In this document: positions 13,101 to 35,559 of the stretch, piece by piece
Layout: each line of letters opens with the position of its first letter
Position numbering within the stretch: the first letter of the stretch is position 1
Source of the DNA: Trypanosoma brucei
Lineage: Eukaryota
Assembly: GCA_000002445.1 (NCBI GenBank)
Contig: CP000069.1
Coordinates: forward strand, 1,408,001-1,472,000
DNA length: 64,000 bases
Direction: 5' to 3'
Position numbers and translations under genes: made by a program
The notes under the pieces: model-generated
What the model saw: the letters and a program-made list of their open reading frames with translations, nothing else
Databases searched by the model: none
What the model was told of the DNA's origin: nothing

Positions 13101-13548
13101 TGTAACTGAGTATTCTACGTTTTGCATAGCTTATCACTAAAACTATTATTTCCTATTCCTCAATGTAATGTCGAACTAATTTATTTTTTTTTCTTTTGCA
13201 TACATATATATGTAAGTATATTATTTTTTTCTGAAATGATTGTGTACAGTAGTTGGGAAATGTTGTTTGGGTTTTCCTCCAAACAGAAATGTTTATTCAT
13301 ACTGTCATGCCTTATTTGTGCTTAAGTTGCCGTGGCTCCCCAACACATGATAAGATTTGTATTGAATCCTAATTTTAGTAAATAGTTTTCATCTGTCATA
13401 TTAATTCCTAATATTCATTTATTGTATATTTATTTTGGTTTAGAAGTGTATCCGTTTTATATTCCCTCATCTTAATTCTTTTTTTTTATATTACAAAGAA
13501 AGGAAATAACACAACGCACTCAATTAAGATTATTATTCGGAGAGTGAA
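13101..13548 (+). repeat. Duplicated RHS 5' flank, copy 1 (partner at 18271-18712)
   Basis: About 440 bp nearly identical to 18271-18712 and ending at the RHS ATG in both copies (..ttattcggagagtgaaATGaatcaacag). Confidence 0.85.
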
Positions 13549-15291
13549 ATGAATCAACAGGTTCCTATTGAAGGAAGGGGTGACATTGAGGGAAGGAGAC
13601 GAGAGCGTGAGGAGGCTGCGCGTAACGATGCGGAACCTCCAGCAGTGCAGCAACGAGTGGAGAATAACAAACAACCACAATGGACAATTTTGAGCAGCGT
13701 TGAAGCAGTTTTGCTGAATGGTCTGCCGCATCCTGGAAATATGAGTGTAAATGATTTTTTGAGGTTTAATTTACTCGAAGATATCGATTTGGATCAGCGT
13801 CTCCTGAGAGCATCAATGTTTGCCTTTGTACAACGATGTGAAGAGTATATTAATGACGTTAATACACTCAATCGAATATTCGCGGCAGTAGCGTATAAAG
13901 TGTACAAACGTTTTGTCAGCATCTATGGTTTCTATGAGGATGAGGGAATATTGAATCTCAGGCGCTGGCAACAAGCAAATGAGGAAGTAAAGGCCAGGTT
14001 ACACGTGAATATTCGTGGACTGAGAAATGGAGATCAAACTTGGATTATTGTCACTAACATGTTGAATGATGCACTCAAAGAAGCATTGGGAGAAGCTGCC
14101 CAAACAGCTGGTGGTGCTGTCGAACTCTCAGGTTTGTATGATTCCATTTATAATGCGAAATGGAGTTACGTGATGTCGGGTTATGATGCAGGGCCATTTG
14201 GAATGTATGTATTCAATGGAAGACCACAGCGCATATGGACCGAAGCGGAGGTGGATATAACTCCTGATCCTGCGAATGTTGATGCAGAGATTGAGGAGAG
14301 ACCTTATGGTTTGGAGATTTTCGTTCTCACGTCTGAGGAAGGTTGGCCATACAACAGGTTTGAAATGGATTACACTACGGGGCGCAAAGCAGCATTTCAG
14401 CATGTATACATCCGTCGTGAAATTATGCGCGTGTGGTATATAATTCAACGAGGATTGCAAACATGGTGGGTGGAAAAGACGGCTCACAGACCACCGATAC
14501 ATATTGTTATTGGTACAGCTGGTATTGGTAAATCATGTGGTGTTGGATCATTTTTGCTTCATTCCCTGCTTCACTTCCATGAAGGAATGCTTGATGTTGT
14601 TGCGTATTTCACAGACACGATCGCCTTCCTCATATACAACAGAAAGGGTGATGAAAGAGGGAGGGTTGAGCGGTACGAAGGTTCGAGAGCTGCGGTCAAC
14701 GCCATGAATAAAATGAAATTTGAAAACGGAGGTCACATCATTATGGACACAAGGTACGCAACGCAGCAGCTGTATACTCATCTTCCCTCTTATACTTGGG
14801 GTGTAACTTTCCTCACTTTTCCGAATAGTGCCCGTTTTGATGACTGGACTACAAATAGGGGAGGCCGCCAAATTATTATAAACTGTGATGATGTGCGTGA
14901 CATGAAGGCATTTGTGGCATGGAAAAAGCTGTCAATACATGCAAGGAAAAAGGTATCCAACAGAAGAAGACACGAATTGAGGAAGGAAATGGAAGATGAA
15001 TGAAAAATAGTGGAGGGACGTATTAATTCAATTGGGCCTCTGCATCCTTATATATCTGGTTTAAGATGTTATGAGTGGCGTCTGAAAAGAGTGCATGATG
15101 CGTTGGAAACTATGAAGAAATCGGGTGAATATTCCTATAATAATATTATTGAGCATACGGCTGCCAGAGAGAACAATGAAGTTATGAACAAGTTGGAGAA
15201 GATTGTAAGAGTAAAGGCAAATGTTGGAGGAATCGAATCATACAAATGTCAAGCTCTATCACCGATGATCCGACATATGATGATGAGCTAA
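13549..15291 (+). pseudogene. RHS: RHS (retrotransposon hot spot) protein gene, empty-site copy, 3'-truncated and degenerate (stop at 15003, then homologous frame 15010-15291)
   Basis: N-terminus MNQQVPIEGRGD...PPIHIVIGTAGIGKS (P-loop) is near-identical to the 18713 copy. It contains the uninterrupted hot-spot sequence ttttgcttcattccctg|cttcacttcc at about 14560-14587. It diverges from copy 2 after ..AWKKLS and ends about 900 bp short of copy 2. Confidence 0.75.
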
Positions 15292-18270
15292 TTGTGCTCT
15301 TGTGTGTTAGTGAAATGCGACTTTGTAACATATGATGGATTTGATACCAAAAACTGTATTTATACTTTACTAATGGTTTGTGCATTGTATACTTTTCCTC
15401 TTTCTTCGAGTGCTTGATGCAGTCACATAATTTTGTTGAATTAGTTACCACACGATGGGAATGTGTGTTTAACAATTTAATTATTATTTTAGTGGCATGA
15501 GTCAATAAATGTTTCAGTTTATCCATTGCAGATGATTGTCTCTGATATCACAGGATTCTATTACTCAAAATAAATACATTGTACTCTACAACATCTTGGA
15601 CTCCAGTTACTTTATTTTGATGGATTTCTTTTGTTTCTTTTATGATGGGAACTGCAGGAATATTGAGGGGATTAAGGAAGTGCGCAGCGGTATGTTAAAA
15701 AATAATAAAATAAAAAGAGCACAACACTGATAACAGCTACATCGCAACAAAACGAATAAGTTTTTTGAGTGAGCATCGGACAATGCCAAATGACATTGTA
15801 GAATATTATACAAACATATCTGGTTCCGTTACATTAATTTGAAAGAACACATTAAGATGTGACAGTTCTCGTTTGTGAAGGAAAACATTGATAACATTAA
15901 ATTGTGAGTAACATTTTGTTATTTTTACATTCCTCACATTACAGTTAGTTAAGCATAATTATGTTATATCTCCTTGCTTTTTATTTTTTAACTTAGAATT
16001 TTACTTTTATTATTTATTTCTTTCTTGAGGGTTGTGAAGTTAACTATGTTTGACAGCAGCACATAACTCACAGGGGTACCCTTATGGTTTCATGCGAAGT
16101 TTTTCTTTTTTTCATGTTTATTTAAAATAAACTTTTGTTTTTTGACTTCTACATGTAGCCGACTAACACTGGCAGAGTCATAGGAAGTTTGAATTCAATT
16201 TTTTCTTCCAATGAGCAAAGCTATTCATCTGTTGGCAAATGGTTATATATAGCAGTAGAATATATTACGCAGTGCTTGTTGTATTTTAATTTATTTTTAT
16301 CATTTATTTTATTGCATATCATTATTTTACAGTTGCTATAATGAAATCATTGTTATTGTGTCGTTTCAGGATATTAGATCACTTATCATTTAACGTAATT
16401 TCAAATTATGATTATATTGAAACAAGTGCATGTTAGTGAAGAATATGCCTCTCTTGATAATTCATGTCTTTTTCTCTTTTAATTTTTAATTTTCAATTTA
16501 GTGCTATAGTTTTAATTAAATGCGTATATTTAACAATGTGGTATTGTTCCATATGGAATGTATCGCCATGGGTTACCATTCACACATTAGTTACTATATT
16601 TATGGTTAAAATGTTTATGGCTGAATGCTGCATTACATTGCTATCAAAATATTATGAATTGGAATAAAATGGAAAAGAAAGCTTGTATGTAAGTGAAATT
16701 ATATCAAGTGTTGTATTTCTGCTACTCGTCAACTTGATACATTTTGCATTTACCCCTCCCACCCCAAAAAAGAAACTAGGAATGCAAGTGTATAAATGTG
16801 TTTGATGTATCCAAATGCAACCAATTGGAAGGTGCGAGTTTTCTGTTTCTTTTTTTTCTGTTTTGTATTCTTTGAACTGTGACACTTTTTTTCAAGACTC
16901 CGGTGTTACGCTGCTGAGTGATCAAAGAAAATAGAAGCAATATCTTTGGAGGAAGTTATTAGTAATTAATTAATTAGTTTGACTCTGAGAGAAAATAAAA
17001 GGGAAAACAACCACTGCTTCTTGAGGAACACAATTCTGTTGTATAGCTTCTGATGTTGTGATCATATATAACACATTTATGGTTATTATATATTTGTATA
17101 TTCCACAAGGTATATCATAGTGTTGAATAGAAAACAAGGAAGGACTTTTGAGGGGGTTTTGTATGTTCTGCTGAATAAAATGAATGGGAATGAAAATATT
17201 AGTAGCTTAACATAACATAGAAGGAGTTTAGAGATATTATGATATGTAATGCTTAAAGTGTCTCACTTACACTTTTTTTTTTTTTGGAAATAGTTACAGT
17301 AACAAAAAGAAATTTACAGTATTTATAAGGAATGGAAATAGGCAGCTGAAACATTAGCGGGAAGAGAAGGGAAGGGAAAAGAAAAAAAGTAAATTATTAT
17401 TTCTCTCATGGATATTTACACTAATTTATATAGGGAGAAACAAGCGATTAGCATACGCAAAGTAAAATGAAATGTGTAAAACATTTAGTGATATATAAAG
17501 CAGAGAACACATACAAAGACACGCACAAGCACATCCGGCACTTCAGAATATATCATATATTTTCTTATATTTGATATATTTCCTTACATATTCCATATAT
17601 TCCCTATGTTTCTGGTTCCTTATATATTCCATATATTCCATATTTTTCAGATAGAGAGAAAATATTGTAAAGCATTTGTCCATGTGGCATACATTTTCAA
17701 TACTTCTTTTTCACCATTATTCGACTCAGCACACTCCTCAAAAGAGGCCTAATATTGGATTATTATTCCCACAAATATATTTGTTTCCTTCCGTGAGCCT
17801 TTCGTTCCTTTTGAGTTTCACCAAGGCACAAAAGCAGATGCATGGTAAGGTGCTCCAATACCAAAACAAAAACAAATACCTTTCATTCCTTCATATATAT
17901 TTCTTAGATTCATGGCTCCATGGTTGCAAAAAAGAAAAAAAAAGGATCACTTAAATAAAGAATAAAGAAAGTGAGCAGCACTTGTTCGTCAGGTGAGATC
18001 TTCCTCTTTGATGTATAAGATTTTATTTTTATTGGTTTTTACGGCGACTATTATTGTATATGTTTTGATATCTCGTACTCTTATTTGCACACTGTGTACT
18101 CATTCGGAGTGCAACAGTTGGCATTAGAAATATTTTTTCCACATTAGGAAGTTATGACAAAATGTCATTCCGAGTGACAGTTCATGTGGGATTATACGCA
18201 AGTTCTGATAGTTGTTTGTATTATTTCTTCATGTAAAGCGCCTTCATCATGCACATGAATACCTTTAACC

Positions 18271-18712
18271 AAGTATTATACATTTTACATAGCTTATCAG
18301 TAAAACTAATATTTCCCATTTTTCATGGCAATGCCACATTTATTTATTCTTTTTGCTTTTCCATACCCATATATATCTAAGTATATTATTTTTTCTGAAA
18401 TGATGGTGTGCAGTAACTGGGAATTGTTGTTTGAGTTTTCCTCCAAACAGAAATGTTTATTCATACTCTCATACCTTATTTGTGCTTAAGTTGCTGTGAG
18501 TTCTAAACACATGATAAGATTTGTATTGAATCCTAATTTTAGTAAATAGTTTTCATCTGTCATATTAATTCCTAATATTCATTTATTGTATATTTATTTT
18601 GGTTTAGAAGTGTATCCGTTTTATATTCCCTCATCTTAATTCTTTTTTTTTATATTACAAAGAAAGGAAATAACACAACGCACTCAATTAAGATTATTAT
18701 TCGGAGAGTGAA
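18271..18712 (+). repeat. Duplicated RHS 5' flank, copy 2
   Basis: Near-identical to 13101-13548. Confidence 0.85.
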
Positions 18713-19729
18713 ATGAATCAACAGGTCCCTATTGAAGGAAGGGGTGACAATGAGGGAAGGAGACGAGAGCGTGAGGAGGCTGCGCGTAACGATGCGGAAC
18801 CTCCAGCAGTGCAGCAACGAGTGGAGAATAACAAACAACCACAATGGACAATTTTGAGCAGCGTTGAAGCAGTTTTGCTGAATGGTCTGCCGCATCCTGG
18901 AAATGTGAAGTTGAATGATTTTTTGAGTAGTAATGTCTATAGAAGAAACCATGTGAATGAAGTAAATAATGTATCATTGTTTTTGTTCTGTAGAATGCCG
19001 GAGCGATACATTGAAAGAAAGGATATACTGGACGAGGCATTTGATCTACCTGATTTTGGGACGTACAAACGTTTTGTCAGCGTCCATCGCTTCCTTGAGG
19101 ATGAGGGAATATTGAATCTCAGGCGCTGGCAACAAGCAAATGAGGAAGCAAAGGCCAGGTTACACGTGAATATTCGTGGACTGAGAAATGGAGATCAAAC
19201 TTGGATTATTGTCACTAACATGTTGAATGATGCACTCAAAGAAGCATTGGGAGAAGCTGCCCAAACAGCTGGTGGTGCTGTCGAACTCTCAGGTTTGTAT
19301 GATTCCATTTATAATGCGAAATGGAGTTGCGTGATGTCGGGTTATGATGCAGGGCCATTTGGAATGTATGTATTCAATGGAAGACCACAGCGCATATGGA
19401 CCGGAGCGGAGGTGGATATAACTCCTGATCCTGCGAATGTTGATGCAGAGATTGAGGAGAGACCTTATGGTTTGGAGATTTTCGTTCTCACTTCGGAGAA
19501 GGGTTGGCCATACAACAGGTTTAAAATGGATTACACTATGTGGCGAAAAGCAGTATTTCAGCATGTATACATCCGTCGTGAAATCATGCGCGTGTGGTAT
19601 ATAATCCAAAAAGATCTGAAAGCATGGTGGGTGGAAAAGACAGCTCACAGACCACCGATACATATTGTTATTGGTACACCTGGTATTGGTAAATCATGTG
19701 GTGTTGGATCATTTTTGCTTCATTCCCTG
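18713..19729 (+). pseudogene. RHS: RHS gene, 5' segment (aa 1-339), interrupted by ingi at the hot spot
   Basis: Same N-terminus and P-loop (IVIGTPGIGKS) as copy 1. The frame continues directly into ingi, giving the 1717-aa chimeric ORF 18713..23866 in the ORF track. Confidence 0.85.
19713..19729 (+). repeat. Target-site sequence ttttgcttcattccctg (TSD copy 1, immediately 5' of ingi)
   Basis: The identical 17-mer recurs after the ingi poly(A) (24980-24996) and after the RIME poly(A) (25494-25510). The empty site is present in RHS copy 1. Confidence 0.8.
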
Positions 19730-19732
19730 GCG

Positions 19733-22700
19733 ATGCCGGCCACCTCAACGTGGTGCCAGGGTCCAGTACCCCGTATCATCGGGGGAAGCCAAGAGCCAGC
19801 AGCGTTCCTTTCATGGGGAACACTGCTGTGCTCCGGCTACGGCATCATACAGCACAGGGATCAGCAGCGTCTTGCTGGGACACCGTCTTTCATTTGTCGG
19901 TCCCTGGGCACGTGCCAGCGTGCCATCAGCAGTATCATCCGCACTAAGATGCTGCTGTCCGGTGATGTGGAAGAGAATCCCGGCCCGTCGTTGCGCGGGA
20001 TGCAGTGGAACTGCGCCGGGCTATCTCAAGGAAAGAGATTAGCACTCCACAAAACCCTTGTTGATGAGCGGATCGCCTTTTGTCTGTTGAGCGAGACAAG
20101 GATGACGCCTGGAGAGGCGGCTTGCTTTAGCGTTGCTGGCTACCAACATCACGGAATAGCTCGTAACTGCAAAGGAGGTGGTGTATCAATACTAGTGAGG
20201 GAGGACCTACCAGTCGAGACCGGTATGGCCGTTATTGGTCGCATTGAACAAGTGCATGCAACAATTCACCTTGCACGTGGAACGGCGCTGACTGTCACGT
20301 CGGCATACATCCCACCAAAACACACCTTCACGGCAACTGACCTAGATACGCTTCTGACGACTGACGGTGCCCAGCTCATCGGTGCAGACGCTAACGCACA
20401 CGCGTTGGCATGGGATCGCGCGAGCCCACCAAATACCAAGGGTGAAACCCTCACACAGTGGTGCATTGACAACCAGTTTCTGGTCTGCAACACTGGTGAG
20501 TGCACCAGGTACGCGCGCCACCACGGGGAGTCCACCCCTGATGTGACACTGTCAAGGAATTGCACAGTGTACACGTGGACATCGCTGTATTCTCCCGATA
20601 GCGATCACCATCACATATTTTTCGACGTTATCGTTGGAGACGACACAGATGCACTGAGTTGCCCGCGGCTTCAAAAGCCCATGTACGCATGGCTAAAAGC
20701 TAACTGGAGGAATTTCCGTCTCAAGGTTGACGAGCTCTGCAGGAAAATTAGTAGAGAGAAGAACGTCAACACCCTGGAACAGAAATTGAGCTCCGCCATC
20801 CGCATTGCGACGAAGGTCTCCGTCCCCCGTGGCTGCAGAGCAACGCCACCACATTGGACACCTGAGCTCGCGAAACTCGATGAAGAGATCGCTGGATGCG
20901 GACCCTCCCACCGAAGGGAAAAGTTGGTAGCCACGCGTAAGCAGATCCTGGACCGTACCACAAAGAAGAGATGGAGCACGCTATGCTCCAGACTTGCGGT
21001 GTCAGACCGCTGCAGTCGGCACATTGTCAAGAAGGTATATGCGCCACGACCACTAACCACACCGGCTGTACTTGTAGATAACGCGGCCATCACGGACTAC
21101 CGTCAAGCTGAGAGGTTCAGTAAACTGTACTCGTCCCGCGCAAGAAGGCACCCCGACTCACACCCACCGGCACCAATAAAGACGATAGCGAGTGAGTTCA
21201 GTCCCATCACGATGGCTGAACTACGGAGATCGATCAAACTGCTACCGAGTGGATCCGCAGCCGGACCTGATTGCTTATACAACGAGGCACTGCAACATCT
21301 CGGCAGAACAGCGCTGAATGTTGTTCTGAGGCTATTCAATGAGAGCCTACGAACGGGAGTCGTGCCGCCTGCATGGAAGACTGGTGTTATCATCCCCATC
21401 CTGAAGGCCGGAAAAAAGGCGGAGGACCTCGATTCTTACAGGCCTGTGACGCTCACGAGCTGTCTCTGCAAAGTCATGGAGCGCATAATTGCCGCGAGAC
21501 TTAGAGACACTGTTGAGTCCCAGCTGACGCCGCAGCAATCAGGCTTTCGCCCCGGATGCTCAACGCTCGAACAACTCCTGCACGTCCGCGCTGCCCTCTG
21601 CCGTCCCACGCACCAATATCGTACGGGTGCTGTATTCGTTGACTACGAGAAGGCATTTGATACAGTAGACCACGACAAAATTGCGAGGGAAATGCACAGA
21701 ATGAAGGTATCACCCCACATTGTGAAGTGGTGCGTATCATTTCTGAGTAACCGAACTGGCAGAGTGAGATTCAAGGAGAAGCTTTCCAGAAGCAGAACAT
21801 TTGAGCGAGGAGTGCCACAAGGAACTGTCCTTGGCCCAATCATGTTCATTATTGTCATGAACTCGTTGAGCCAACGCCTTGCAGAGGTGCCGTTACTGCA
21901 GCACGGATTCTTTGCAGACGACCTAACGCTACTTGCGAGGCACACAGAGAGGGATGTCATCAACCACACACTACAATGCGGTCTAAACGTGGTGTTACAG
22001 TGGTCAAAAGAGTACTTCATGTCTGTCAACGTAGCGAAAACAAAGTGCACACTCTTCGGGTGTATAGAGCGCCACCCCCTTACATTACAACTGGACGGTG
22101 AAAGAATAGGAGCTGACAGGACACCGAAGCTTCTAGGAGTAACATTCCAGTGTCTGCAGGGGATGGCAACACATGCGGCCGAAACGAGACGCAAGATGGA
22201 CTTCCGACTACTGCAGATAGCAGCCATCTCAGCTTCTATATGGGGGCCAATACGACAAGTGCTGAGAGCTTTTTATCTAGCACTCGTACAGGCACACACC
22301 ATGTATGGCATTGAGGTATGGTACTGGGACGCTTCGGAACGAAGTCGCGACCTCCTTGCATCAGCACAACACAAAGCCAGTCGCATCATAGCCGGCATAC
22401 CGCATGGGACGCGCAAAGAGGACTCTCTGCTGGAAGCAAACCTCCTGCCACTCAAGACGACCACTCTTGTGCGCAGCATGAAATTCATGCTGATGTGTGA
22501 GTCACGAGGCGGATGTTTGCGGCGCAGTGCTGAAGAAGTATACCACAGCAAACACCCAGTCAGAGCCCTACATTCCCGTATCATGCGGTCCTACCCCCAC
22601 CTCCGCATTGAGCCACGCGAGCACCCACTAGAGACATCGACGCTCCGCCACAGCTGCCGACCGATATTTCACACGCAGATAAAGCCTGTGTGCGCTGATG

Positions 22701-23866
22701 ACCCTGACGATGTCAAAAGGGAGGCTTCCGAAAAGTGGATTGAACGACATTTTGCACGGAGGGGGAAGGAGCCACCGCGGCGAGAGCACTACGAATTGTG
22801 GACTGATGGATCCGTGTCCCTCGGTGAGAAGTCCGGAGCAGCTGCCCTGCTCTATAGAAACAACACGCTGATTTGTGCACCTAAGACAGGAGCAGGGGAA
22901 CTTTCATGCAGTTACAGAGCGGAATGCGTAGCATTAGAGATAGGACTGCAACGGCTGCTGAAATGGCTTCCGGCATACAGAAGCACACCGAGCAGGTTGT
23001 CCATCTTCTCTGACTCGCTGTCAATGTTAACAGCACTGCAGACAGGCCCCCTAGCCGTAACGGACCCAATTCTAAGACGACTATGGAGGCTTCTGCTTCA
23101 AGTTCAGAGAAGGAAGATACGTATCCGACTGCAATTTGTGTTTGGCAATTGTGGCGTGAAACGGAATGAGGTTTGCGATGACATGGCCAAAAAGGCCGCA
23201 GATTTACCACAGTTGCGAGACACATGGATCCCCGACATCATTGCTTATGCGAAGCGAGTGCTTAGGTCGGAAGAAGTCCATGAGAACACTCATAGGTTTG
23301 GTATCACGGGCAACCACTTTCCAACAAAACATAAGGAAGAACTGACGAGGGAAGAAGAAACGGCACTGGCACGCTTTCGGGTTGGGTCTTCAAGACACTA
23401 TGGATGGATGTTGCGAAAGATTAACCCGAGTGTGCCTCCACAGTGCCGATGGTGCAACCCGCAACATGCAGAGATAGGGCCAACAATACAAACAGCCCCA
23501 ACTGTTGCGACACGCACTCTTCAGAGAACCTCCGAACCGACCAAATGTACTGAATGTGATGCCACATACCAATGCCGCTCGAGTGCTGTAACGCATATGG
23601 TAAACAAACATGGCTTTGTGCGAGCTGATGCCCTTCGAAAGATAAAATACGGCGATGCAACACCTGCAGTGGATATCCCCCCGGAGCCCCCTCCAGTGGT
23701 GGCGATCGTTCCTCTACCATCGAGCACACGAGTTACGATGAGACCGCAGGTGCTTCATTGTACCATCTGTGCCTCCAAATTCGCAATGCCAGGCAGACTA
23801 CTACACCACCTTAGAACAATACATGGCATAGGCAGCGGCAGTTGCCGCGTGAAAAGGGGGCGATAA
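19733..23866 (+). CDS. ingi polyprotein ORF, in frame with upstream RHS. Contains leader with 2A motif, AP-endonuclease-like region (about 20000-20640), reverse transcriptase (about 21200-22100, FADD at about 21908-21921), RNase H-like region (about 22800-23200) and first C2H2 zinc fingers (about 23530-23840). Terminated by an in-frame TAA at 23864-23866
   Basis: Translation MPATSTWCQGPVPRIIGG...DVEENPGP...WNCAGLSQ...FVDYEKAFDTVDH...FFADDLTL...WTDGSVSLG...CTECDATYQC..HCTICASKF..HHLRTIHG. Confidence 0.85.
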   Translation: MPATSTWCQGPVPRIIGGSQEPAAFLSWGTLLCSGYGIIQHRDQQRLAGTPSFICRSLGTCQRAISSIIRTKMLLSGDVEENPGPSLRGMQWNCAGLSQGKRLALHKTLVDERIAFCLLSETRMTPGEAACFSVAGYQHHGIARNCKGGGVSILVREDLPVETGMAVIGRIEQVHATIHLARGTALTVTSAYIPPKHTFTATDLDTLLTTDGAQLIGADANAHALAWDRASPPNTKGETLTQWCIDNQFLVCNTGECTRYARHHGESTPDVTLSRNCTVYTWTSLYSPDSDHHHIFFDVIVGDDTDALSCPRLQKPMYAWLKANWRNFRLKVDELCRKISREKNVNTLEQKLSSAIRIATKVSVPRGCRATPPHWTPELAKLDEEIAGCGPSHRREKLVATRKQILDRTTKKRWSTLCSRLAVSDRCSRHIVKKVYAPRPLTTPAVLVDNAAITDYRQAERFSKLYSSRARRHPDSHPPAPIKTIASEFSPITMAELRRSIKLLPSGSAAGPDCLYNEALQHLGRTALNVVLRLFNESLRTGVVPPAWKTGVIIPILKAGKKAEDLDSYRPVTLTSCLCKVMERIIAARLRDTVESQLTPQQSGFRPGCSTLEQLLHVRAALCRPTHQYRTGAVFVDYEKAFDTVDHDKIAREMHRMKVSPHIVKWCVSFLSNRTGRVRFKEKLSRSRTFERGVPQGTVLGPIMFIIVMNSLSQRLAEVPLLQHGFFADDLTLLARHTERDVINHTLQCGLNVVLQWSKEYFMSVNVAKTKCTLFGCIERHPLTLQLDGERIGADRTPKLLGVTFQCLQGMATHAAETRRKMDFRLLQIAAISASIWGPIRQVLRAFYLALVQAHTMYGIEVWYWDASERSRDLLASAQHKASRIIAGIPHGTRKEDSLLEANLLPLKTTTLVRSMKFMLMCESRGGCLRRSAEEVYHSKHPVRALHSRIMRSYPHLRIEPREHPLETSTLRHSCRPIFHTQIKPVCADDPDDVKREASEKWIERHFARRGKEPPRREHYELWTDGSVSLGEKSGAAALLYRNNTLICAPKTGAGELSCSYRAECVALEIGLQRLLKWLPAYRSTPSRLSIFSDSLSMLTALQTGPLAVTDPILRRLWRLLLQVQRRKIRIRLQFVFGNCGVKRNEVCDDMAKKAADLPQLRDTWIPDIIAYAKRVLRSEEVHENTHRFGITGNHFPTKHKEELTREEETALARFRVGSSRHYGWMLRKINPSVPPQCRWCNPQHAEIGPTIQTAPTVATRTLQRTSEPTKCTECDATYQCRSSAVTHMVNKHGFVRADALRKIKYGDATPAVDIPPEPPPVVAIVPLPSSTRVTMRPQVLHCTICASKFAMPGRLLHHLRTIHGIGSGSCRVKRGR
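19964..19987 (+). other. 2A-like self-cleaving peptide motif DVEENPGP in the ingi leader
   Basis: Codons ggt gat gtg gaa gag aat ccc ggc ccg read G D V E E N P G P. This is the canonical D(V/I)ExNPGP motif. Confidence 0.8.
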
Positions 23867-24706
23867 AACGAGGACTCAGTGCAAGGAGATGGTAAAGCCC
23901 CAGCAGCGCCAGCCTCTCAGGATACACGGAAGCTGCCGTTTCAATGTGACCTGTGCGAGGCGAGCTTCGGTACACGTTCTTCCCTGACACTACACAAGAA
24001 ATTCAAACATAAAAGCATAGTGACGGAGGACGGTACCGTGGTGTTGGTGCAATTCCCTCGTAAGCGTGCCCGTGAGGGAAACGTTGACGTCCCGGGGAAG
24101 GGCGAGGTGCAGTGCGGTGTGTGCCAAAAAGTGCTCAGTTGCAGGGACTCCCTCATCCGACACTGTAAGGCTTTCCACAAAGGTGAGGGAGTCGAGCTTA
24201 AATGCAGCAAAAGCACAAAATTGTGTGCCACTGATTCCCCGCATACAAACACATCCATGTTGGTGTGCCCGACATGCGGAAGGCAGTGTGCTAGCAAAAC
24301 TGGCCTCACCCTACATCAAAAGAAGATGCACGGTATGAAGGTAGAGCGCGCTGTTACCAGCCAACGCGGCGACTGCGAAGAAACGTCGCTGCACTTGATG
24401 AGCTGTCCCGGTTTGAAGGAGTTACGTGTCAGATTTGCGGTAGAAGGTGAGTGTGTGCAGGATGTATGCTTCTCCAAAAGGCTGGCGCAGTTTCTCATTG
24501 CGGTTGAACGGAGCCGGCCGCAGGTGAAGTCCTCACCTAAGGTAACAGTCATACAACCCACTCTCCCTTCTGCAACTTCCCCCCTTATTGCCGAGTGTGG
24601 AGCAAGCAGGAAAAGCACCGGACGCAGGAATAGTCCAGACACCCTCAGAGACAGAGGAGGTATGCAGTCAACAAGCAACAGAAACAGAAAGAGGGGGAGA
24701 GAATAA
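23867..24706 (+). CDS. ingi ORF continuation after the single in-frame stop: C-terminal C2H2 zinc-finger region (ORF track 23879-24706)
   Basis: Same frame as 19733..23866. Motifs FQCDLCEASFGTRSSLTLHKKFKH, CGVCQKVLSCRDSLIRHCKAFH and CPTCGRQCASKTGLTLHQKKMH. Summed length of about 1654 codons matches a full-length ingi ORF. Confidence 0.7.
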   Translation, partial: NEDSVQGDGKAPAAPASQDTRKLPFQCDLCEASFGTRSSLTLHKKFKHKSIVTEDGTVVLVQFPRKRAREGNVDVPGKGEVQCGVCQKVLSCRDSLIRHCKAFHKGEGVELKCSKSTKLCATDSPHTNTSMLVCPTCGRQCASKTGLTLHQKKMHGMKVERAVTSQRGDCEETSLHLMSCPGLKELRVRFAVEGECVQDVCFSKRLAQFLIAVERSRPQVKSSPKVTVIQPTLPSATSPLIAECGASRKSTGRRNSPDTLRDRGGMQSTSNRNRKRGRE

Positions 24707-24979
24707 TAAACGAATAACAAAAATCAAAACAAAAGGATTGCTAATTGACATCTTTGGGAGAGTCCGGGGTGAGGGGGGCTTCTCGCCCCATCTGCTGTAT
24801 TCCGTTCAACTGCGGAGCTACAACAAAAATTATAGAGGGTGTGTTAGGATGAATAAAAAAGGGAGACTCTGCCACAGTCGCCAGACCGATAGCATCTCAG
24901 GGCTCTACGGTGATGGCTGATGGCCGCGCCAGTTGGGAGAAACTCTCACGAAGGCACGAAGAAAATTCAAAAAAAAAAA

Positions 24980-24996
24980 TTTTGCTTCATTCCCTG
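24980..24996 (+). repeat. TSD copy 2 (ttttgcttcattccctg), shared between the ingi 3' end and the RIME 5' end
   Basis: Follows the ingi (A)11 and precedes gcgatgccgaccacc of RIME. Confidence 0.8.
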
Positions 24997-25493
24997 GCGA
25001 TGCCGACCACCTCAACGTGGTGCCAGGGTCCAGTACCCCGTATCATCGGGGGAAGCCAAGAGCCAGCAGCGTTCCTTTCATGGGGAACACTGCTGTGCTC
25101 CGGCTACGGCATCATACAGCACAGGGATCAGCAGCGTCTTGCTGGGACACCGTTTTTCATTTGTCGGTCCCTGGGCACGTGCCAGCGTGCCATCAGCAGT
25201 ATCATCCGCACTAAGATGCTGCTGTCCGGTGATGTGGACCTCCAAAAAAGGATTGCCAATTGGCATCTTTTGGAGAGTCCAGGGTGGGAGGCTTCTCGCC
25301 CCATCTGCTGTATTCCGTTCATATGCGGAAATACAACAAAAATTATAGAGGGTGTGTTAGGATGAATGAAAAAGGGAGACTCTGCCACAGTCGCCAGACC
25401 GATAGCATCTCAGGGCTCTACGGTGATGGCTGATGGCCGCGCCAGTGGGGGGAAACTCTCACGAAGGCACGAAGAAAATTCTAAAAAAAAAAA
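24997..25493 (+). mobile_element. RIME: RIME (about 500 bp non-autonomous ingi-derived retroelement), poly(A) 25483-25493
   Basis: 24997-25238 matches the ingi 5' end (19730-19971). 25239-25493 matches the ingi 3' end (about 24725-24979). The internal junction gatgtgga|cctccaaaaaagg lies inside the 2A codons. Confidence 0.9.
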
Positions 25494-25510
25494 TTTTGCT
25501 TCATTCCCTG
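25494..25510 (+). repeat. TSD copy 3 (ttttgcttcattccctg), then RHS resumes with cttcacttccatgaagg
   Basis: Identical 17-mer. Downstream sequence equals RHS copy 1 from 14576 onward. Confidence 0.8.
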
Positions 25511-27007
25511 CTTCACTTCCATGAAGGAATGCTTGATGTTGTTGCGTATTTCACGGGCGGGATAGCCTACTTAATATATAACGATAAACCCGGTGAAGAG
25601 GGGAGAGTTGAGCAGTATAAAGGCGTGACAGCTTCTGTGAGGGGAATAAATGCAGTAAAGTACGAAAAGACAGGTCACATCATTATGGACACAAGGTACG
25701 CAACGCAGCAGCTGTATACTCATCTTCCCTCTTATACTTGGGGTGTAACTTTCCTCACTTTTCCGAATAGTGCCCGTTTTGATGACTGGACTACAAATAG
25801 GGGAGGCCGCCAAATTATTATAAACTGTGATGATGTGCGTGACATGAAGGCATTTGTGGTATGGAAAAAGCTGTCTGTAGCATCATGCTATGCGATACTT
25901 GATAAAGAGTCACAGGTGAGGATTGTAGAAGAAATCAAAAATGAGTGGAAAACAATAGAGGGCCGTGTTGATGTAGTTGGGCCAGTGCCTCGTTGCGTTT
26001 ACGACAGCATGGAGTACACAAAACGTGTGTCTCAGGCAAAAAAGACGATAACGGCCATCAATGATGATAACAAAAGACACTACGAGGACATAATGATGAA
26101 AATTGCCGGTTGGCAAAATGATAAGGTAACGCACAGGTTAGTGAGAATCGTTCGTGTGCGAGATGCCGGAGAGAGCATCGATGGATACCGCTGCAGGCCA
26201 CTTTCGGCTTGCATTGGGAATGCTATATTTTTAAAACTGCTTTCCATTATTGTGCAGAAAATGGCTATCCGTCAAGTTATGATTTCAGACGAGAGTGCTG
26301 CGGCCAACGTTTTCAAATCGGGGGCGTTGTTTGCATTTCTTTTTCCTCGAGTTTTTAAAGTTATCAGAGACAACATAAAATACCTGCGGCGGCCGGGTGG
26401 ACCGGAAGAGAAACGATGCATACTGAAAGACATGACTCCTCAGCAGTTGAGACTCACTGGGCAGAAGTTTTTACCAGATGCCAGACAGCAGCCAATGGAG
26501 AAGTGTGAATACATGGTTCTCTACCGCCCTGCCACAGTCAATGAACCCGTGGTGGATGGCTTTTTTTTCGTTGAGGGGCGGCTCAGGAAAACTCCTAAGG
26601 GCAGGGCGGCACTGACCACTCCAAATATAGCTGTGCTTTTACAAGTAACCAAGTTGGCATGTCACCCCACCACTGCGTCAAAGGTGCAGAAGTTCCGAGA
26701 AAACATGGCAAGATATTTTTCTGATTGGGGTGCGTTTTCCAGCAACATGGTTTGGGAGATGATATACATCAATGGAGCTAGTGGTGGTGTGATTACAAGA
26801 TGGCAGCTTTGTGATGGCGACGACCCCGCCGAAGCGGCTGATATGTGGAGAAACATGACTCAATACCAAGTAACGTTAAGAGAAGAAATGCAGGGGCAGC
26901 TAATGCGAGCATATGCAGAAGAAGGTTGGTATCGGGATGCTCCACTTCTGGCCATGGAGCCTGCGCCGCAGCCACGCAACGAGCAAGCGGGAGCGCAAGG
27001 AGGGTGA
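25511..27007 (+). pseudogene. RHS: RHS gene, 3' segment (about 500 codons) downstream of the ingi+RIME insertion
   Basis: ..LLHFHEGMLDVVAYFT..HIIMDTRYATQQLYTHLPSYTWGVTFLTFPNSARFDDWTTNRGGRQIIINCDDVRDMKAFV.. is collinear with copy 1. The ORF runs to the stop at 27005-27007. Confidence 0.85.
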
Positions 27008-29992
27008 GGCGATTTCACAGCATTGAGTGAGGTAGAAGCTGAGTAAAAATATCCGGCCTGGTATGTTATGGTGGACGCGAGCAGTCAACAGTGTACGGTG
27101 CTAATGTGGGGCGAGGCGGCGTTTTTTCCATTCAAAGTCAAATTGAGTTATCGTATCATTGGGAGGCCAGCAGTCCTAACTGCCAAAACAGGGTAAATGG
27201 CTTTGTCTTAATGCTTGACATGACAGGATGCGCTGCAAGGGAGTAATATTCAGCAAATAGCGGCTATAGTAATCATCTTATTCTTTTCAACAAGCAGTCA
27301 AATGCGGCGGTTAGTGCAGGAAAGGGACGTGATAATTCGCTTGAGTGTCGGGAGGGATGGGAGGGAAGTGGAAATGAAGACGACTAAGGAATAGTAAAAG
27401 TAGTATTTTATCGGCTAACGCGTAACTGGAGTTAAGCCACATCGTAATCTTAAGGGGCACAGAGAAAGACAGAAATAATGTTATCGACGGACGTAAGAAA
27501 ACATTGTAACGTTTTGTTTTCATTTTTGCTATTACCAACTCAAGAATTGGATTATACTAGACTAACTCTTCACATCTTCCTTTCATTTATACAATCTAAA
27601 TTTTCCATCCGTGTAGAGATAGGAATCTATAGTCCAATGATAAAAGGAACAAAAATGTAATAGTACTTTTCGCTTCTTCGCCATCCGTGGTGGAGAGAGA
27701 GTATTGGAAACATGCCTCAACTCTAACTCTGCTGAATCCTATTTCCAGTAGGTGTAATGGGAGAGGGATTGTGACGGAGTGAAATATGCAAACATTAGAA
27801 GCAGTTACTGGATGTGCTGTTTCATATACGAGCTGTTATAATTATATTATACATGTTAGTTATGGTTGCAGTTATGGAGCAGCTCTTGATGGTGTTCTTC
27901 GCAGACGCGCAGCTGGTGACGTGATTGTGTCCATTTTCCTCTCTCACTCTCTTTCTTTCTTCAATTATTTGTCGGTGTGCAAACATACTATGATATGTTG
28001 TCTTCTCTTTACTTATAATCACTTCTGTTATCCTGGTTGAGGGTTGGCAGTTGGGCCTCTCTCCACACGTGGCAACCTTAAACTTATGTTGCTGGTTGCC
28101 TCCAGCAGCAAATCCCATATCATCATCAACATTGATACGAAAACCATGCAGTGATCGTATGTAACGGCAGCAGTGGAGTGACCATGACCTCGTCTATTGA
28201 CCCACATGTGCGAACTTATTTCTCTATTCAAGTCAATGGGGAATGGTGCATGCCCCTCCTTGCGATACCCCAGAGGGTGAAAGTTGTTGCTGTTTGGTCA
28301 ATAATTTTGCTATTCTTAGTCAGGTAACACTAGAGATGAATAATTTGTTTTTTTACACGCGGATGCGTACAATTTTGGGGTGGAGTAAATGGATTGTATC
28401 AGCCCCAACGAATTTCTTAAATACTACGCAGTTTTTCTCAATGAAGTGCTGATGTGCGTTTACCGGTACATGATCCGTTTGTGTCGGGATGTATTACGAA
28501 CCCTGAGGAACACAGGCCGCTTGCATCCACATGTTTCTATTGCGATAAATGACCGCCAGAAGAGTATTCGAATTGTTTGTGTCGACGGAAGGATCGTGAG
28601 GTTGTATGTTTTTGTTGGCGATGGGAAACACGCTGTAATTTCTCAACACCTTGATAACTTGAGTTCAGGCAAGTGCTCGATTAACGATGTTTTAGTTGAA
28701 GGTTTGTTGTGGAATTCACTGACGTAAATGAAGCGAATGACTACCTTATAGCAGTTCACCATAGAGACATTGAGCAGTACAAGAGACTCACTTGGGGTTG
28801 TCGCTAGAATTATTCTCCTTTTCACATCACAATCAATTTGCACGACACACATTACAGTCAGCCATGGGCAAGCAAGCTGTTGGAACCATTGCGTATATTC
28901 AGTACATTAGAAATGGACACAGTACTTATGTTAAGTGCTTACTCTCAACGTTCCCTTTGCTGGACGAAGGCTATGAACCTAAGCAACTACAAAATATTAG
29001 TTGCAGGAATTAGTACGATGGTATGCATTATGACCTATAGAGGCTACAATATTGAAGACTCAAAGGTGTACAACTGCAGTTCGCTCAACTGTGGCTACGG
29101 GTGCTGTGTTGTTTTTTGTAAGCATGAGATGGAACTGGAAAGACTTCCCAACGGTGAGTATGATATAATTCTTCCAACAGATTGAAATGTTGCGAGACGC
29201 AATGCCTTTAATAGTGATGGTATTGCCAGTAGTAAAGGGGCGGTTATTCGTCAGTTTGATATTTTGGTAAACAAATAAACTCCCGTGCTGTCCATAAAAA
29301 CAAGACCTAATTTTCTTGAATATAAATACCCTCAGCCTGCTTTTGTGAACCAAATGTGGTCATCTCTCACCTTCCAGTGACTCGGATATATCAATGGATG
29401 TAGAACAATAAAGTTAAAGTTTCTACGAGAGAAGTTCGCGGTCCCGAGTCCTGAAATAAGTTTTCCTCACGGCACTGGCTGGAGGGAGTAGTGGATCTCA
29501 TCACTGATGGTGTATTAACATGCCCTTCAATGAGTAAAGGCATTTTCCCAGATATGATCAATAAATTCTCATGGATTCCCGAGCCGTATGACAGTTGGAA
29601 AGTTGCTGGAACTTGTTAGCTTAAAGGTGTGAGTGCATTCACGGAAAAATTCGGCGATGGCAATGCCTTTGGGTACTGATAAGGATGAAGAGCTGGATGA
29701 GGAATTGATACAACATGGATACAATTATCTTCGAGGAGATGATGCATATTTTCCACTCGGGCATAACGGGGAAGATGATACGCACTTATGTTTTCTTTGA
29801 CCCCATTTATTACCAACACCTCAAACACATGGTTACTGATAAGATTAATGTTCATGCCACTTGGCGGGCCCCGTTTCATGCTGACGAGGTCAACACATTC
29901 AAAGTCGATTCCGCAGTGGAGGTTTGCGTATTGTTGAAATGGAAAGGGATTACATGGTTATATATATGGTGCATCTAAATTTCTCAATGATA

Positions 29993-31908: not shown

Positions 31909-34489
31909 TCCCTGCCGCCTCCCCAATCCCTTTTCTGTGCGTACAGTTACTGCAGCTTTTTTTGGTTAGCACCGCAGAGTTTCGTGCGTAATTTTATGGT
32001 CCTTTCAAAAGTGATGTTTAATACGTTTTTTTTTGGAACCTTCCTCGTTCCTGTCCACCTCTTTATTTATTTTGGTAAAATTCTGTAATTGAAGGATGAT
32101 GGAAAATAGACTAGGCGCATATGATTCGCTAGTTGATTTTAGTCAGAATTTGACACGTGCAGCATCGCTGCTTCTTCCCAGAGAGACAACCACATCATCA
32201 CCGAAACACAAAGTTACACCAAAATATTATTGTAGAAAATAACTGTCATGCGGTAATGTTTTCATCCAGTTAACAAATCTATCACATTTGAGCGGCTTTA
32301 GCTTTGTACCTTCCCTCCGCCATGTTGTTGTTGTTTCTTCCATAAGCATATATCACTTCATTTGATGTTTTCTGTTTAGTTTCGCCTCTGCGCCAAATTC
32401 ATCACCACATCCCTTCGCCTGCAGTGCCGCTGTGGTAAAGAATAAATAAATAAATATTTATGTAGGTCACAGAGATTTTACATCTAATTAAATTATGCCA
32501 CTTCATCCATTATTTATTTTTTGTTTTATTAAACCCACGTATCTTTACCGCGAAACAACAAATGACATATCGCAATAACCGCAGCATTCCATTTGTTTTC
32601 TCCCTTATTATGTTAATAAATGCATGTGTTACTTGATAAAAGTGCAGAGCCCGTGATGCATGTGCATGGAATTTCAACAGTATGGCACTTATGGTGTAAC
32701 ACAATATCCGTAACACACATACAAATACACACAGAATGGTTTCTTTCGGGCTCAAAATACGTTTTTCATTTTAAAATTCACATTCCACACCTTGTAAAAC
32801 ATATACTGGCGAAGGAACTTTTTTGTTTGATACCATCCAAACTCTATCCGCTTATATGTTTAATAAACTGGACTAATTATATTTTTCATATACTTATATC
32901 ACAACGGAATTAACGATAATTTGAATGTCGCATCTATTCTTACACTCATAATTTTTATACTTCCGTTTTCTTCCTCGAAACACGTCATGTCTTTTTGAAA
33001 AATGTCCTCATTTGTTTTTATATTTCAACGAATATATGAAAAAGCGAATATTCATATAATCTCTATGATTATCATCCTCTCTAGTGGTGTTGCATTTTTA
33101 TTGGAAGTAAAGAACAAAAGTAGTTTATTGTGTGTAACAACTGAAACATTATTTTTGAGGTGCATAATAGATTTCCGTTAAGTCAAGAAATATTGTGAAG
33201 CGACCGTACTGACTGCTTTTTATTGCGTGGAAACAGTGAACTTATCAATGTATCTTCGGATACGGTGGTGATTCATATTATTCCTTCAACATCCTTTTGA
33301 AGTTAATAGTGCTAAAAGCATCGTATTACACTTTACATGCATTCAAATGCAAACACTTCGACGAAAGCACCTTTTCAGCCTGGAATTATACATTTTTTCC
33401 AATACGTTATTTATTTTGCTGCAGTTACTGTCATGAAACTCTTGCAGCCACCCAATGCTAGCATATGAAACGGCATAGAGGTGCGTGCATGAAACTTGAC
33501 GAATAGATTTGTTAAAATGCAAATGATAGTTATTATACATCAGATGCGTTATTCAAATCATAACAGATATGCTCATGCTTTTCTTCACTTATGATGTATA
33601 TTTTCTTCGTTGTAACAGCGCACAGTGAGATCAAATTATAATCTTTTGATGTGATTACAGATGAGAAATCCTTCCTAAAGTGTCTGAAGTTGTACAAATC
33701 ATATGTATTTATCTACTTTCATTTATTGGGAGAAGCAGTCAAGCGCACATGTGTTTTGTTGATATGTAAACACGAATGAAGAGAGAAGTGAAGCAACTCC
33801 AACATTAGGCAAGCTTCCATGAGCATATAAGTTGTGGAATTAAAGGAAATGGTTGTAAAGTGTGAATAAAGAAAATTCGAATTGCCGTTGCATAAAATAA
33901 CAGAATATGATCTTTTTTTTGTGAAGTATTATCTTTAAGATATAAAAAGACACTTAAAAATATACGCGGATACAAATAACAGGATGATTGTCCAACTTGT
34001 GCACCTCTGACCTCAGTGCTTGTGATTGTATATTAATCGTGCCACTAGATGTCACCGCAAAAAAAATAACATCAGTTTTTGTTACACATACTCGTTTCAT
34101 ATCCATTATTTTGTAAACACGTCTATTTTTTCTTATTAGTTATTAGAGTAGTATGTTGCGATGACGCGTCTCTTGATTAGTTGCCCGTTATTAATTTGCT
34201 TATTTCTATATCCATTTGTTTATTTACTTACGTTAGCTTACACTAAGTTTACACATAATAAACAAACAACGTTATCCCTGCATTTTCCTTCGTGAAGGAG
34301 ACACTAAGGGAGAACACGCGTGATACAATTAATTTCTTTATTATTTTGTCCAATGGGTAGTGATAACTAACGATGCACAACATCTTATATTGCAGTTACT
34401 TATACTTGAGTGTAAAGTGTAATATACATTGCCTTCTTTCTTCATCCAATCAGCACGTCTCTCCCACGTCCATCCCGACACTTCTTTAT

Positions 34490-35370: not shown

Positions 35371-35559
35371 CCGATACTGCTGCTTACTCCTGCTCTGGTC
35401 ACCTAAAGCCTGCTACCCGCCCCAATCCTGTCGGACAGGGTATAATACGGGCACTTGTCTTCCTCCGATGAGACGGTGTACTGGACCCTGGCGCCACAAT
35501 GAGGTGGCCGGCGTCACCAGGGATTTTTCATAATTTTCATAAAATTTGGAAATATCCTT

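What the first reader, a model, noticed from the sequence alone, without database searches (positions are those of the whole stretch)
18713..27007. RHS pseudogene carrying a tandem ingi+RIME insertion, with the empty-site paralogue 5 kb upstream
The RHS frame breaks at ..FLLHSL|. A full-length ingi then follows (19730-24979, A11 tail), then the 17-mer ttttgcttcattccctg, then a 497-bp RIME (24997-25493, A11 tail), then the same 17-mer again. RHS then resumes exactly where it left off (cttcacttccatg..). The same 17-mer directly precedes the ingi. The paralogue at 13549 carries the uninterrupted site (..ttttgcttcattccctgcttcac..). Filled and empty alleles of the hot spot are therefore both visible in one window. 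Two elements sharing one internal TSD copy implies either two successive insertions at exactly the same nucleotide, or co-mobilisation or recombination of an ingi-RIME dimer.
Basis: partly seen in the sequence, partly recalled or inferred. Interest (0 to 1): 0.6.

Follow-up and report, generated by a model that had tools for sequence, protein, structure and literature searches.

The report
RHS pseudogene with ingi plus RIME
This is a Trypanosoma brucei RHS gene interrupted at its well-known retrotransposon hot spot by a full-length ingi followed head to tail by a RIME, each bounded by the usual 12-bp target duplication, so it is a clean example of a known situation and not a new one.

Summary
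TTTTGCTTCATTCCCTG occurs exactly four times: at the paralogue's empty site, before the ingi, between ingi and RIME, and after the RIME. Removing the insert restores an uninterrupted 837-aa RHS frame.

The interpretation needs four corrections.
- The duplication is the canonical 12 bp (TTTTGCTTCATT). The next five bases, CCCTG, are the first bases of every ingi/RIME. This RHS subfamily happens to carry the same five bases after the site. True limits are ingi 19725-24979 and RIME 24992-25493.
- The RHS frame does not break. It runs in frame into the ingi ORF, giving a 1717-aa fusion ORF that includes a 2A-like DVEENPGP.
- The RIME is an independent RIME-lineage copy, not a deletion of the neighbouring ingi.
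- The "empty" paralogue is not an allele. It is a different C-terminal subfamily and is itself inactivated by one TGA.

Most likely mechanism: two successive target-primed insertions. Only the 5' junction of a filled site keeps the upstream recognition context (GGATCA), the 12-mer and CCCTG. This suggests the ingi arrived second, but that order is inferred.

The RHS hot spot, the 12-bp duplication and tandem stacking in this clade (shown for L1Tc) are already published. Interest is low.

The parts
18713..19724 (+). 5' part of the RHS pseudogene (N-terminal about 337 codons), ending with the 5' copy of the duplication. Contains DUF7578, RHS_N and the P-loop GTPGIGKS.
   Evidence: Pfam RHS_N 3.6e-30 and DUF7578 2.9e-11 on ORF 18713-23866. 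93-96% nt identity to the paralogue. Closest annotated proteins are T. brucei RHS.
19706..19711 (+). GGATCA, one base upstream of the first nick. Candidate endonuclease recognition core (GGAT[C/T][A/C]-N-|12-nt duplication).
   Evidence: The same motif sits at the same offset at the empty paralogous site (14545-14550), at two non-RHS ingi sites (L002, L003), and at RHS sites with other duplication sequences (L004, L005). Background frequency is 6e-4 per position.
19713..19724 (+). Target-site duplication, copy 1 (TTTTGCTTCATT).
   Evidence: The 12-bp size agrees with PMC2323293 and with L003 and L005.
19725..24979 (+). Full-length ingi (5255 bp including CCCTG and the A11 tail).
   Evidence: Domains Exo_endo_phos_2, RVT_1, RNase_H and zf-C2H2. 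96.4-96.7% identical over its full length to four T. equiperdum ingis. Starts CCCTGGCGATGCC like all other copies.
19733..24706 (+). ingi ORF of 1657 codons, in frame with the RHS ATG at 18713. Has a single nonsense codon, TAA, at 23864-23866 (codon 1378).
   Evidence: the other five copies have GAG or GAA at that codon. The 1657-aa size matches the published functional ingi ORF (PMC3447711).
19964..19987 (+). 2A-like motif DVEENPGP (ingi residues 78-85).
   Evidence: Fits the DxExNPGP consensus shown to be functional in L1Tc (PMC5814959).
24980..24991 (+). Target-site duplication, copy 2, between the ingi A11 tail and the RIME.
24992..25493 (+). RIME (502 bp including CCCTG and the A11 tail).
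   Evidence: The 5' 242 nt are 99.2% and the 3' 250 nt are 94% identical to the ingi ends. Shares RIME-lineage differences from the ingi with the RIME in L005.
25494..25505 (+). Target-site duplication, copy 3.
25506..27007 (+). 3' part of the RHS pseudogene (P-loop domain remainder and C-terminal domain). Begins with the RHS's own CCCTG.
   Evidence: Pfam RHSP 7.2e-54. Collinear with the paralogue to 25875. The C-terminal half is 74% identical to TREU927 RHS P0056.
13549..15291 (+). Paralogous RHS of the short (about 580-aa) subfamily with an unfilled hot spot (12-mer at 14552-14563). Inactivated by an in-frame TGA at 15001-15003.
   Evidence: Collinear in one frame with TREU927 RHS P0001 over 580 codons, 78% identity. 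Pfam RHS_N, RHSP and DUF7578. Site read-out.

Best explanation
The locus is a Trypanosoma brucei-group RHS gene hit twice at the family's known retrotransposon hot spot.

Shown: the layout is RHS 5' part, 12-bp duplication, full-length ingi, 12-bp duplication, RIME, 12-bp duplication, RHS 3' part.

Inferred mechanism:
- The ingi-encoded AP-type endonuclease recognises sequence just upstream of the first nick (GGATCA-T|). In RHS this lies five codons after the P-loop.
- It nicks the bottom strand there and the top strand 12 nt downstream. Target-primed reverse transcription then inserts an ingi, or a RIME mobilised in trans.
- After the first insertion, the 5' junction still carries the whole upstream context, the 12-mer and, in this RHS subfamily, the next five bases. 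This is because ingi/RIME start with CCCTG, the same bases that follow the site in this RHS.
- The filled site therefore stays a good target. A second event at the 5' copy gives the head-to-tail dimer with one shared internal duplication. On this model the ingi arrived after the RIME.

Consequence shown by the sequence: the insertion position puts the ingi ORF in frame with the RHS start codon, with a 2A-like DVEENPGP 85 codons into the element.
For: Anatomy:
- Three exact copies of the 12-mer + CCCTG bound the two elements, each preceded by A11 where expected.
- Excision restores an 837-aa RHS ORF.

Duplication size and element start:
- 12 bp is published for ingi/RIME.
- L003 (non-RHS ingi) reads TTCTCACAATGC|CCCTGG...A10|TTCTCACAATGC|TACGCC.
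- L005 (RHS + RIME) reads T[A/T]CTGTTATACA with AACTAC after the 3' copy.
- All 10 element starts are CCCTGG, and L1Tc +1 is CCCTGGC.

Upstream determinant:
- GGAT[CT][AC] lies one base before the duplication at the window site, L002, L003, L004 and L005.
- The duplications themselves differ (TTTTGCTTCATT, TTCTCACAATGC, TACTGTTATACA), so the 12-mer is not what is recognised.
- Of the three filled-site copies of the 12-mer, only the 5' junction keeps this upstream context. The other two are preceded by A11.

Independence of the two elements: RIME-lineage positions are shared with a RIME at another locus in another subspecies.

Precedent: the sister element L1Tc occurs as tandem repeats in which each copy is flanked by the same duplication (PMC5814959).

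In-frame fusion: ORF 18713-23866, domains, 2A-like motif. The RHS + RIME in L005 has the same codon register.
Against: - The order of the two events cannot be read from the sequence. Each element has only about 1-2 private substitutions in the shared ends, and all three duplication copies are identical.
- The 12-mer is conserved RHS coding sequence. Identity of the outer copies therefore does not prove that both RHS halves come from one ancestral gene.
- The N-half is closest to P0001/P0057-type RHS. The C-half is closest to P0056, which has a different N-terminus. A recombinant history is therefore possible.
- Only three filled RHS sites were examined (dimer, single ingi, single RIME). How often stacking happens was not measured.
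- The endonuclease specificity is inferred from five sites, not from a cleavage assay.
Confidence: 0.72

Rival explanations
1. The dimer arose by recombination, not by a second insertion. Microhomology-mediated joining or unequal exchange would link one RHS pseudogene carrying an ingi to another carrying a RIME, using the 17 shared bases (12-mer + CCCTG) as the only homology.
For: RHS copies are mosaic: the N- and C-halves of this pseudogene have different nearest relatives. L004 has mismatched 5' and 3' duplication copies (TTTTTTACTTCATT versus TGCTTCATT). L001 and L002 ingis have no duplication at all, so recombination through elements is frequent. The literature ascribes some RHS pseudogenes to crossing-over upstream of the insertion site (PMC7563717).
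Against: The only sequence shared between 'ingi 3' end-A11-12mer-CCCTG' and 'RHS-12mer-CCCTG-RIME' is 17 bp. The junction is precise to the base, and both poly(A) tails are intact. A site-specific endonuclease explains this precision without a special event.
Confidence: 0.12
2. A pre-existing ingi-12mer-RIME dimer at another RHS hot spot was copied here as one unit. The route would be read-through transcription and retrotransposition of the whole dimer, or segmental duplication or gene conversion of a dimer-bearing pseudogene.
For: The internal 12-mer is conserved RHS sequence, so a dimer from another RHS copy would carry the same spacer. RHS genes sit in duplicated clusters: a 1.8-kb duplication lies within this window.
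Against: No second copy of the dimer was found in the window or in the 7 loci fetched. In the sister element, the 5' ribozyme is proposed to separate copies transcribed from tandems (PMC5814959). This model only moves the origin of the dimer elsewhere.
Confidence: 0.12
3. The tandem is an assembly artefact that joins reads from an RHS-ingi locus and an RHS-RIME locus.
For: The region is highly repetitive and subtelomeric: RHS paralogues, a VSG array and a degenerate ingi-related element.
Against: A false join would have to occur within 17 bp plus a poly(A) run. The RHS frame is restored exactly and the window has no N. Tandem stacking is a documented biological state in this clade.
Confidence: 0.03

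Closest known systems
RHS (retrotransposon hot spot) pseudogenes of Trypanosoma brucei with RIME and/or ingi at a fixed position (Bringaud et al. 2002, Eukaryot Cell 1:137; full text not held here; cited through PMC7563717 and PMC6393297)
   Same: Same gene family (Pfam RHS_N, RHSP, DUF7578). The insertion lies five codons after the P-loop. Elements are ingi and RIME. The setting is subtelomeric, next to VSG genes.
   Different: Nothing essential differs. This copy is a well-preserved example: both tails are intact, all three duplication copies are identical, and the ingi has a single nonsense codon. From memory, the 2002 abstract speaks of copies containing 'a RIME and/or ingi', so dimers were already seen. 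I could not check the text.
ingi/RIME relative site specificity: 12-mer duplication preceded by a conserved pattern (Bringaud et al. 2004, Mol Biol Evol 21:520; cited in PMC2323293)
   Same: 12-bp duplication. A conserved motif lies immediately upstream of the duplication at RHS and non-RHS sites alike.
   Different: I derived only a short core (GGAT[CT][AC]N|) from five sites. The published 11-mer consensus was not available for comparison.
L1Tc/NARTc of Trypanosoma cruzi: tandem head-to-tail copies each flanked by the same duplication; Pr77 5' end starting CCCTGG; 2A-like peptide
   Same: Same clade and the same first bases (CCCTGG). Same 2A consensus in frame with the ORF. Same tandem arrangement with a shared duplication between copies.
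   Different: Different species and a different target. The duplication reported for the L1Tc tandems is 9 nt (TGCAGACAT). Promoter and ribozyme activities were shown for L1Tc, and promoter activity was not detected for ingi/RIME.
Strictly site-specific non-LTR elements such as SLACS/CZAR in spliced-leader genes
   Same: Repeated use of one nucleotide position in a multicopy host gene.
   Different: ingi/RIME are only relatively site-specific and are dispersed genome-wide. L001-L003 are non-RHS sites.

Membership tests
ingi (autonomous non-LTR retrotransposon, ingi/L1Tc clade) | About 5.25 kb, with the two RIME halves at its ends | tested here: met
   5255 bp. The ends match the RIME at 99% and 94%. 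Size as in PMC2323293 and PMC3447711.
ingi (autonomous non-LTR retrotransposon, ingi/L1Tc clade) | [quoted passage not shown] | tested here: met
   1657 codons and Pfam domains. One TAA at codon 1378, so this copy is not coding-competent as it stands.
ingi (autonomous non-LTR retrotransposon, ingi/L1Tc clade) | Conserved 5' signature (Pr77/79-bp) starting at CCCTGG | tested here: met
   Start CCCTGGCGATGCCGGCCACCTCAACGTGG is identical or nearly identical in 10 copies. L1Tc +1. No Rfam family matched, so ribozyme folding was not tested.
ingi (autonomous non-LTR retrotransposon, ingi/L1Tc clade) | 3' poly(A) and a 12-bp target-site duplication | tested here: met
   A11 tail. TTTTGCTTCATT on both sides. 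12 bp per PMC2323293.
RIME (non-autonomous partner of ingi) | About 0.5 kb made of the ingi 5' and 3' ends, no ORF of its own, poly(A), 12-bp duplication | tested here: met
   502 bp, 242 + 250 nt matches, A11, flanked by the same 12-mer. Shares lineage-specific positions with another RIME.
RHS multigene family | RHS_N and RHSP (P-loop) domains, with a conserved N-terminal region and a subfamily-specific C-terminus | tested here: met
   Pfam hits on both halves and on the paralogue. Full-length matches to annotated T. brucei RHS proteins. The two window copies diverge after 14933/25875.
RHS multigene family | Retroelement insertion site five codons downstream of the ATP/GTP-binding motif, at the same relative position in all filled copies | tested here: met
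   GTPGIGKS + CGVGS, then the nick. Same codon register in L004 and L005.
Tandem stacking at one target (as described for L1Tc) | Head-to-tail elements, each pair separated by one copy of the same duplication | tested here: met
   Precedent in PMC5814959. Frequency at RHS sites genome-wide was not measured.
Functional 2A 'self-cleaving' peptide | DxExNPGP motif in frame with the ORF, and actual co-translational separation | tested here: inconclusive
   The motif DVEENPGP is present and in frame. Activity was shown only for L1Tc and is not testable here.

The most novel reading that the evidence does not exclude
In this RHS subfamily the five bases after the duplication (CCCTG, synonymous Ser-Leu codons that read CATTG, CACTG or CCCTA in other RHS copies) are identical to the first five bases of ingi/RIME. 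This could have two effects. First, a filled site would regenerate an exact 17-nt-plus-upstream copy of the empty target at its 5' junction. The hot spot would then be self-renewing and stack elements youngest-first. Second, the microhomology could help join the cDNA 3' end during second-strand synthesis. Together with the fixed in-frame position and the 2A-like peptide, the RHS hot spot could serve ingi as a translation platform: an RHS start codon on a trans-spliced mRNA, with release of the ingi protein at NPG|P.
Probability: 0.2. Interest if true: 0.45.

Novelty: already known. Interest (0 to 1): 0.15.

Why it matters
It matters little beyond annotation. The locus is a clean, nearly undamaged example of hot-spot re-use by ingi/RIME. 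It could serve as a reference for element boundaries: the duplication is 12 bp, not 17 bp, and the element starts at CCCTGG. It could also be a test substrate for endonuclease specificity. If the self-renewing-target idea held, it would explain why RHS clusters accumulate retroelements. It would also give a simple rule for ordering insertions in time.

Tried and rejected
- Source contig: exact-protein look-ups of window ORFs (13549-15003, 25433-27007) and of TREU927 RHS proteins P0001, P0008 and P0012 found nothing on record. The orthologous locus in other strains could therefore not be inspected. All 12 look-ups are used.
- Primary RHS paper: Bringaud 2002 is not held under its PMC id or DOI. 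What I say about its content beyond secondary citations is from memory.
- Rfam scan of 18000-27500 at E<=1: no match. No curated model for the Pr77/L1Tc ribozyme was hit.
- Relative dating of ingi versus RIME from private substitutions in the shared ends: about 1-2 each, uninformative.
- RIME as a deletion derivative of the adjacent ingi: rejected.
- 17-bp target-site duplication: rejected in favour of 12 bp plus 5 bp of element. A 17-nt staggered cut with microhomology-primed second-strand synthesis would give the same product and cannot be formally excluded at this one site.
- Filled and empty sites as alleles: rejected. The two are paralogues of different C-terminal subfamilies.
- The public DNA collections (viral, metagenome, bacterial/archaeal genomes, phages, plasmids, E. 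coli) were not scanned, because they would not be expected to hold trypanosome sequence.


Full report
**1. Checking the observation**

The 17-mer TTTTGCTTCATTCCCTG occurs exactly four times in the 64-kb window, at 14552, 19713, 24980 and 25494. No further match appears even with two mismatches allowed, and 0.02 matches are expected by chance.

- RHS coding sequence up to ..GGATCAT, then the 17-mer.
- A long element ending in A11, then the 17-mer.
- A short element ending in A11, then the 17-mer.
- Then CTTCACTTCCATGAAGG.., which is what follows the 17-mer at the uninterrupted site at 14552.

Joining 18713-19729 to 25511-27007 gives an 837-aa ORF without a stop. It is collinear with the paralogue through the site.

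**2. What the parts are**

*The RHS gene.* Pfam finds DUF7578, RHS_N and RHSP on the flanking ORFs and on the paralogue. Database relatives are annotated T. brucei, T. b. gambiense and T. equiperdum RHS proteins.

[quoted passage not shown] It is 96.4-96.7% identical over its whole length to four ingi copies fetched from T. equiperdum. Its ORF (19733-24706) has 1657 codons, the published size of a functional ingi ORF (PMC3447711). It has one nonsense codon, TAA at 23864, where five other copies have GAG or GAA.

*The short element.* It matches the first 242 nt (99.2%) and last 250 nt (94%, with indels) of the ingi, which is the definition of a RIME (PMC2323293).

*The setting.* The rest of the window is subtelomeric. 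There is a VSG array on the minus strand from about 36 kb onward and a degenerate ingi-related element at about 34.4-35.5 kb.

**3. The duplication is 12 bp, not 17**

The literature gives 12 bp for ingi/RIME/L1Tc/NARTc (PMC2323293). It places position +1 of the homologous L1Tc at CCCTGGC (PMC1874656). I tested this on independent copies.

| Locus | Site type | 5' side | 3' side |
|---|---|---|---|
| L003 | ingi at a non-RHS site | ..GGATTAA TTCTCACAATGC CCCTGGCGATG.. | ..A10 TTCTCACAATGC TACGCC |
| L005 | RIME in an RHS of another subfamily | TACTGTTATACA CCCTGGCG.. | ..A10 TTCTGTTATACA AACTAC |

In both loci the repeat is 12 nt. CCCTG occurs only at the element's 5' end, not after the 3' copy.

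All ten element 5' ends examined begin CCCTGG. These were the window ingi, the window RIME, the window degenerate element, L001-L004 and L005.

So the true limits are ingi 19725-24979 (5255 bp) and RIME 24992-25493 (502 bp), and the duplication is TTTTGCTTCATT. The 17-mer appears because this RHS subfamily happens to have CCCTG immediately after the 12-mer. Other unfilled RHS copies read CATTG (L005), CACTG (L006) or CCCTA (L007, three copies) at these synonymous Ser-Leu codons.

At this one site, a 17-nt stagger with microhomology-primed second-strand synthesis would give an identical product. It cannot be formally excluded here.

**4.

- *The RHS frame does not break.* ORF 18713-23866 (1717 aa) runs from the RHS ATG straight into the ingi ORF. 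The same codon register holds for the RIME-filled RHS in L005. Residues 78-85 of the ingi ORF are DVEENPGP. This fits the DxExNPGP 2A consensus shown to be active in L1Tc (PMC5814959).
- *The RIME is not a deletion derivative of its neighbour.* At about a dozen aligned columns in the 3' half, the window RIME and the T. b. gambiense RIME of L005 agree with each other and differ from this ingi.
- *The 'empty' paralogue is not an allele.* Nucleotide homology runs only from 13103 to 14933. The gene is collinear in one frame with the 579-aa TREU927 RHS P0001 and has an in-frame TGA at 15001-15003. It is a pseudogene of a different C-terminal subfamily.
- *The filled RHS is itself mosaic.* Its N-half is closest to P0001/P0057-type proteins. 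Its C-half is closest to P0056, which has another N-terminus. This fits the published idea of crossing-over between RHS variants upstream of the site (PMC7563717).

**5. How the hot spot most likely works**

At the window site, at two non-RHS ingi sites (L002, L003) and at RHS sites with different duplications (L004, L005), the hexamer GGAT[C/T][A/C] lies one base upstream of the 12-nt duplication. Its background frequency in the window is 6e-4 per position.

The duplicated 12-mers themselves are unrelated (TTTTGCTTCATT, TTCTCACAATGC, TACTGTTATACA). The determinant therefore lies upstream of the first nick. This agrees with the published 'conserved pattern preceding the 5' direct repeat' (Bringaud 2004, as cited; I did not have the consensus itself).

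In RHS this sequence encodes G-S five codons after the P-loop. That is the published position of the hot spot.

**6. Origin of the dimer**

Among the three filled-site copies of the 12-mer, only the 5' junction keeps the upstream context. The other two are preceded by A11. At that junction the element's own CCCTG replaces the RHS CCCTG, so the target is unchanged for 17 nt past the nick.

The simplest account is two successive target-primed insertions. The second would use the 5' copy, which would make the ingi the later arrival. Tandem head-to-tail L1Tc copies, each flanked by the same duplication, are documented in T. cruzi (PMC5814959).

What is shown: the structure, the 12-bp duplication, the independence of the two elements and the retention of the upstream motif.

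What is inferred: the endonuclease specificity, re-use of the 5' copy and the order of events. Private substitutions (about 1-2 per element in the shared ends) do not resolve the order.

Rival explanations:
- Microhomology-mediated recombination between an ingi-bearing and a RIME-bearing pseudogene. Only 17 bp of shared sequence is available.
- Copying of a pre-formed dimer from another RHS site.
- Misassembly.

None of these is excluded. Each is less economical than successive insertion.

**7. Comparison with what is known, and verdict**

Every defining feature of ingi, RIME and the RHS hot spot that could be tested here was met (see the membership table). Three things are already in the literature:
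- The existence of RHS pseudogenes with RIME and/or ingi at one fixed position.
- The 12-bp duplication and the upstream pattern.
- Tandem stacking in this clade (shown for L1Tc).

The locus is therefore a well-preserved example of an already known situation.

One possibly under-appreciated detail is the five-base identity between the element start and this RHS subfamily's post-site sequence, together with the constant in-frame fusion carrying a 2A-like motif. Whether these have functional weight is speculative.

Interest is low (0.15). Novelty: already known.

Noticed in passing
window 34427-35522 (minus strand): A degenerate ingi-related element. It has a Pr77-like start, CCCTGGTGACGCCGGCCACCTC, at about 35522. 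Its translation is 25-40% identical to ingi residues 2-406. It lies between the RHS genes and the VSG array.
   Followed up: partly
window 25433-27007 (+): An ATG inside the RIME 3' end (25433) is in frame with the RHS 3' part through the poly(A) and the duplication. This gives a 524-aa ORF that would encode the RHS P-loop/C-terminal region with a 20-residue RIME-derived leader.
   Followed up: partly
window 8-5533 (+): An ORF of 1841 aa that starts 8 bases from the window's left edge, so it may continue upstream of it. It has no Pfam match at E<=0.001. Identity unknown.
   Followed up: no
window 36310-61631 (minus strand): An array of VSG genes or fragments (VSG_B, Trypan_glycop and Trypan_glycop_C hits) on the opposite strand to the RHS genes. 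The window therefore spans a strand switch typical of a T. brucei subtelomere.
   Followed up: partly
L004:10760-10790 and 16013-16045 (T. equiperdum CM010676.1): An RHS filled with a single ingi whose two duplication copies disagree: 5' TTTTTTACTTCATT, with two extra T and G>A, versus 3' TGCTTCATT. The RHS and ingi frames are shifted there. This suggests the two RHS halves come from different copies, or later mutation.
   Followed up: partly
L001:9993-15254 and L002:2486-7750 (T. equiperdum): Full-length ingis at non-RHS sites with no recognisable target duplication. This is consistent with recombination between dispersed copies. L002 still has the GGATTA motif upstream.
   Followed up: no
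window 14564-14568; L005:~445; L006:~11047; L007:~4949, ~10573 and ~16145: The five bases after the 12-mer vary only at synonymous positions among unfilled RHS copies (CCCTG, CATTG, CACTG, CCCTA). Only the CCCTG form equals the ingi/RIME 5' end.
   Followed up: partly
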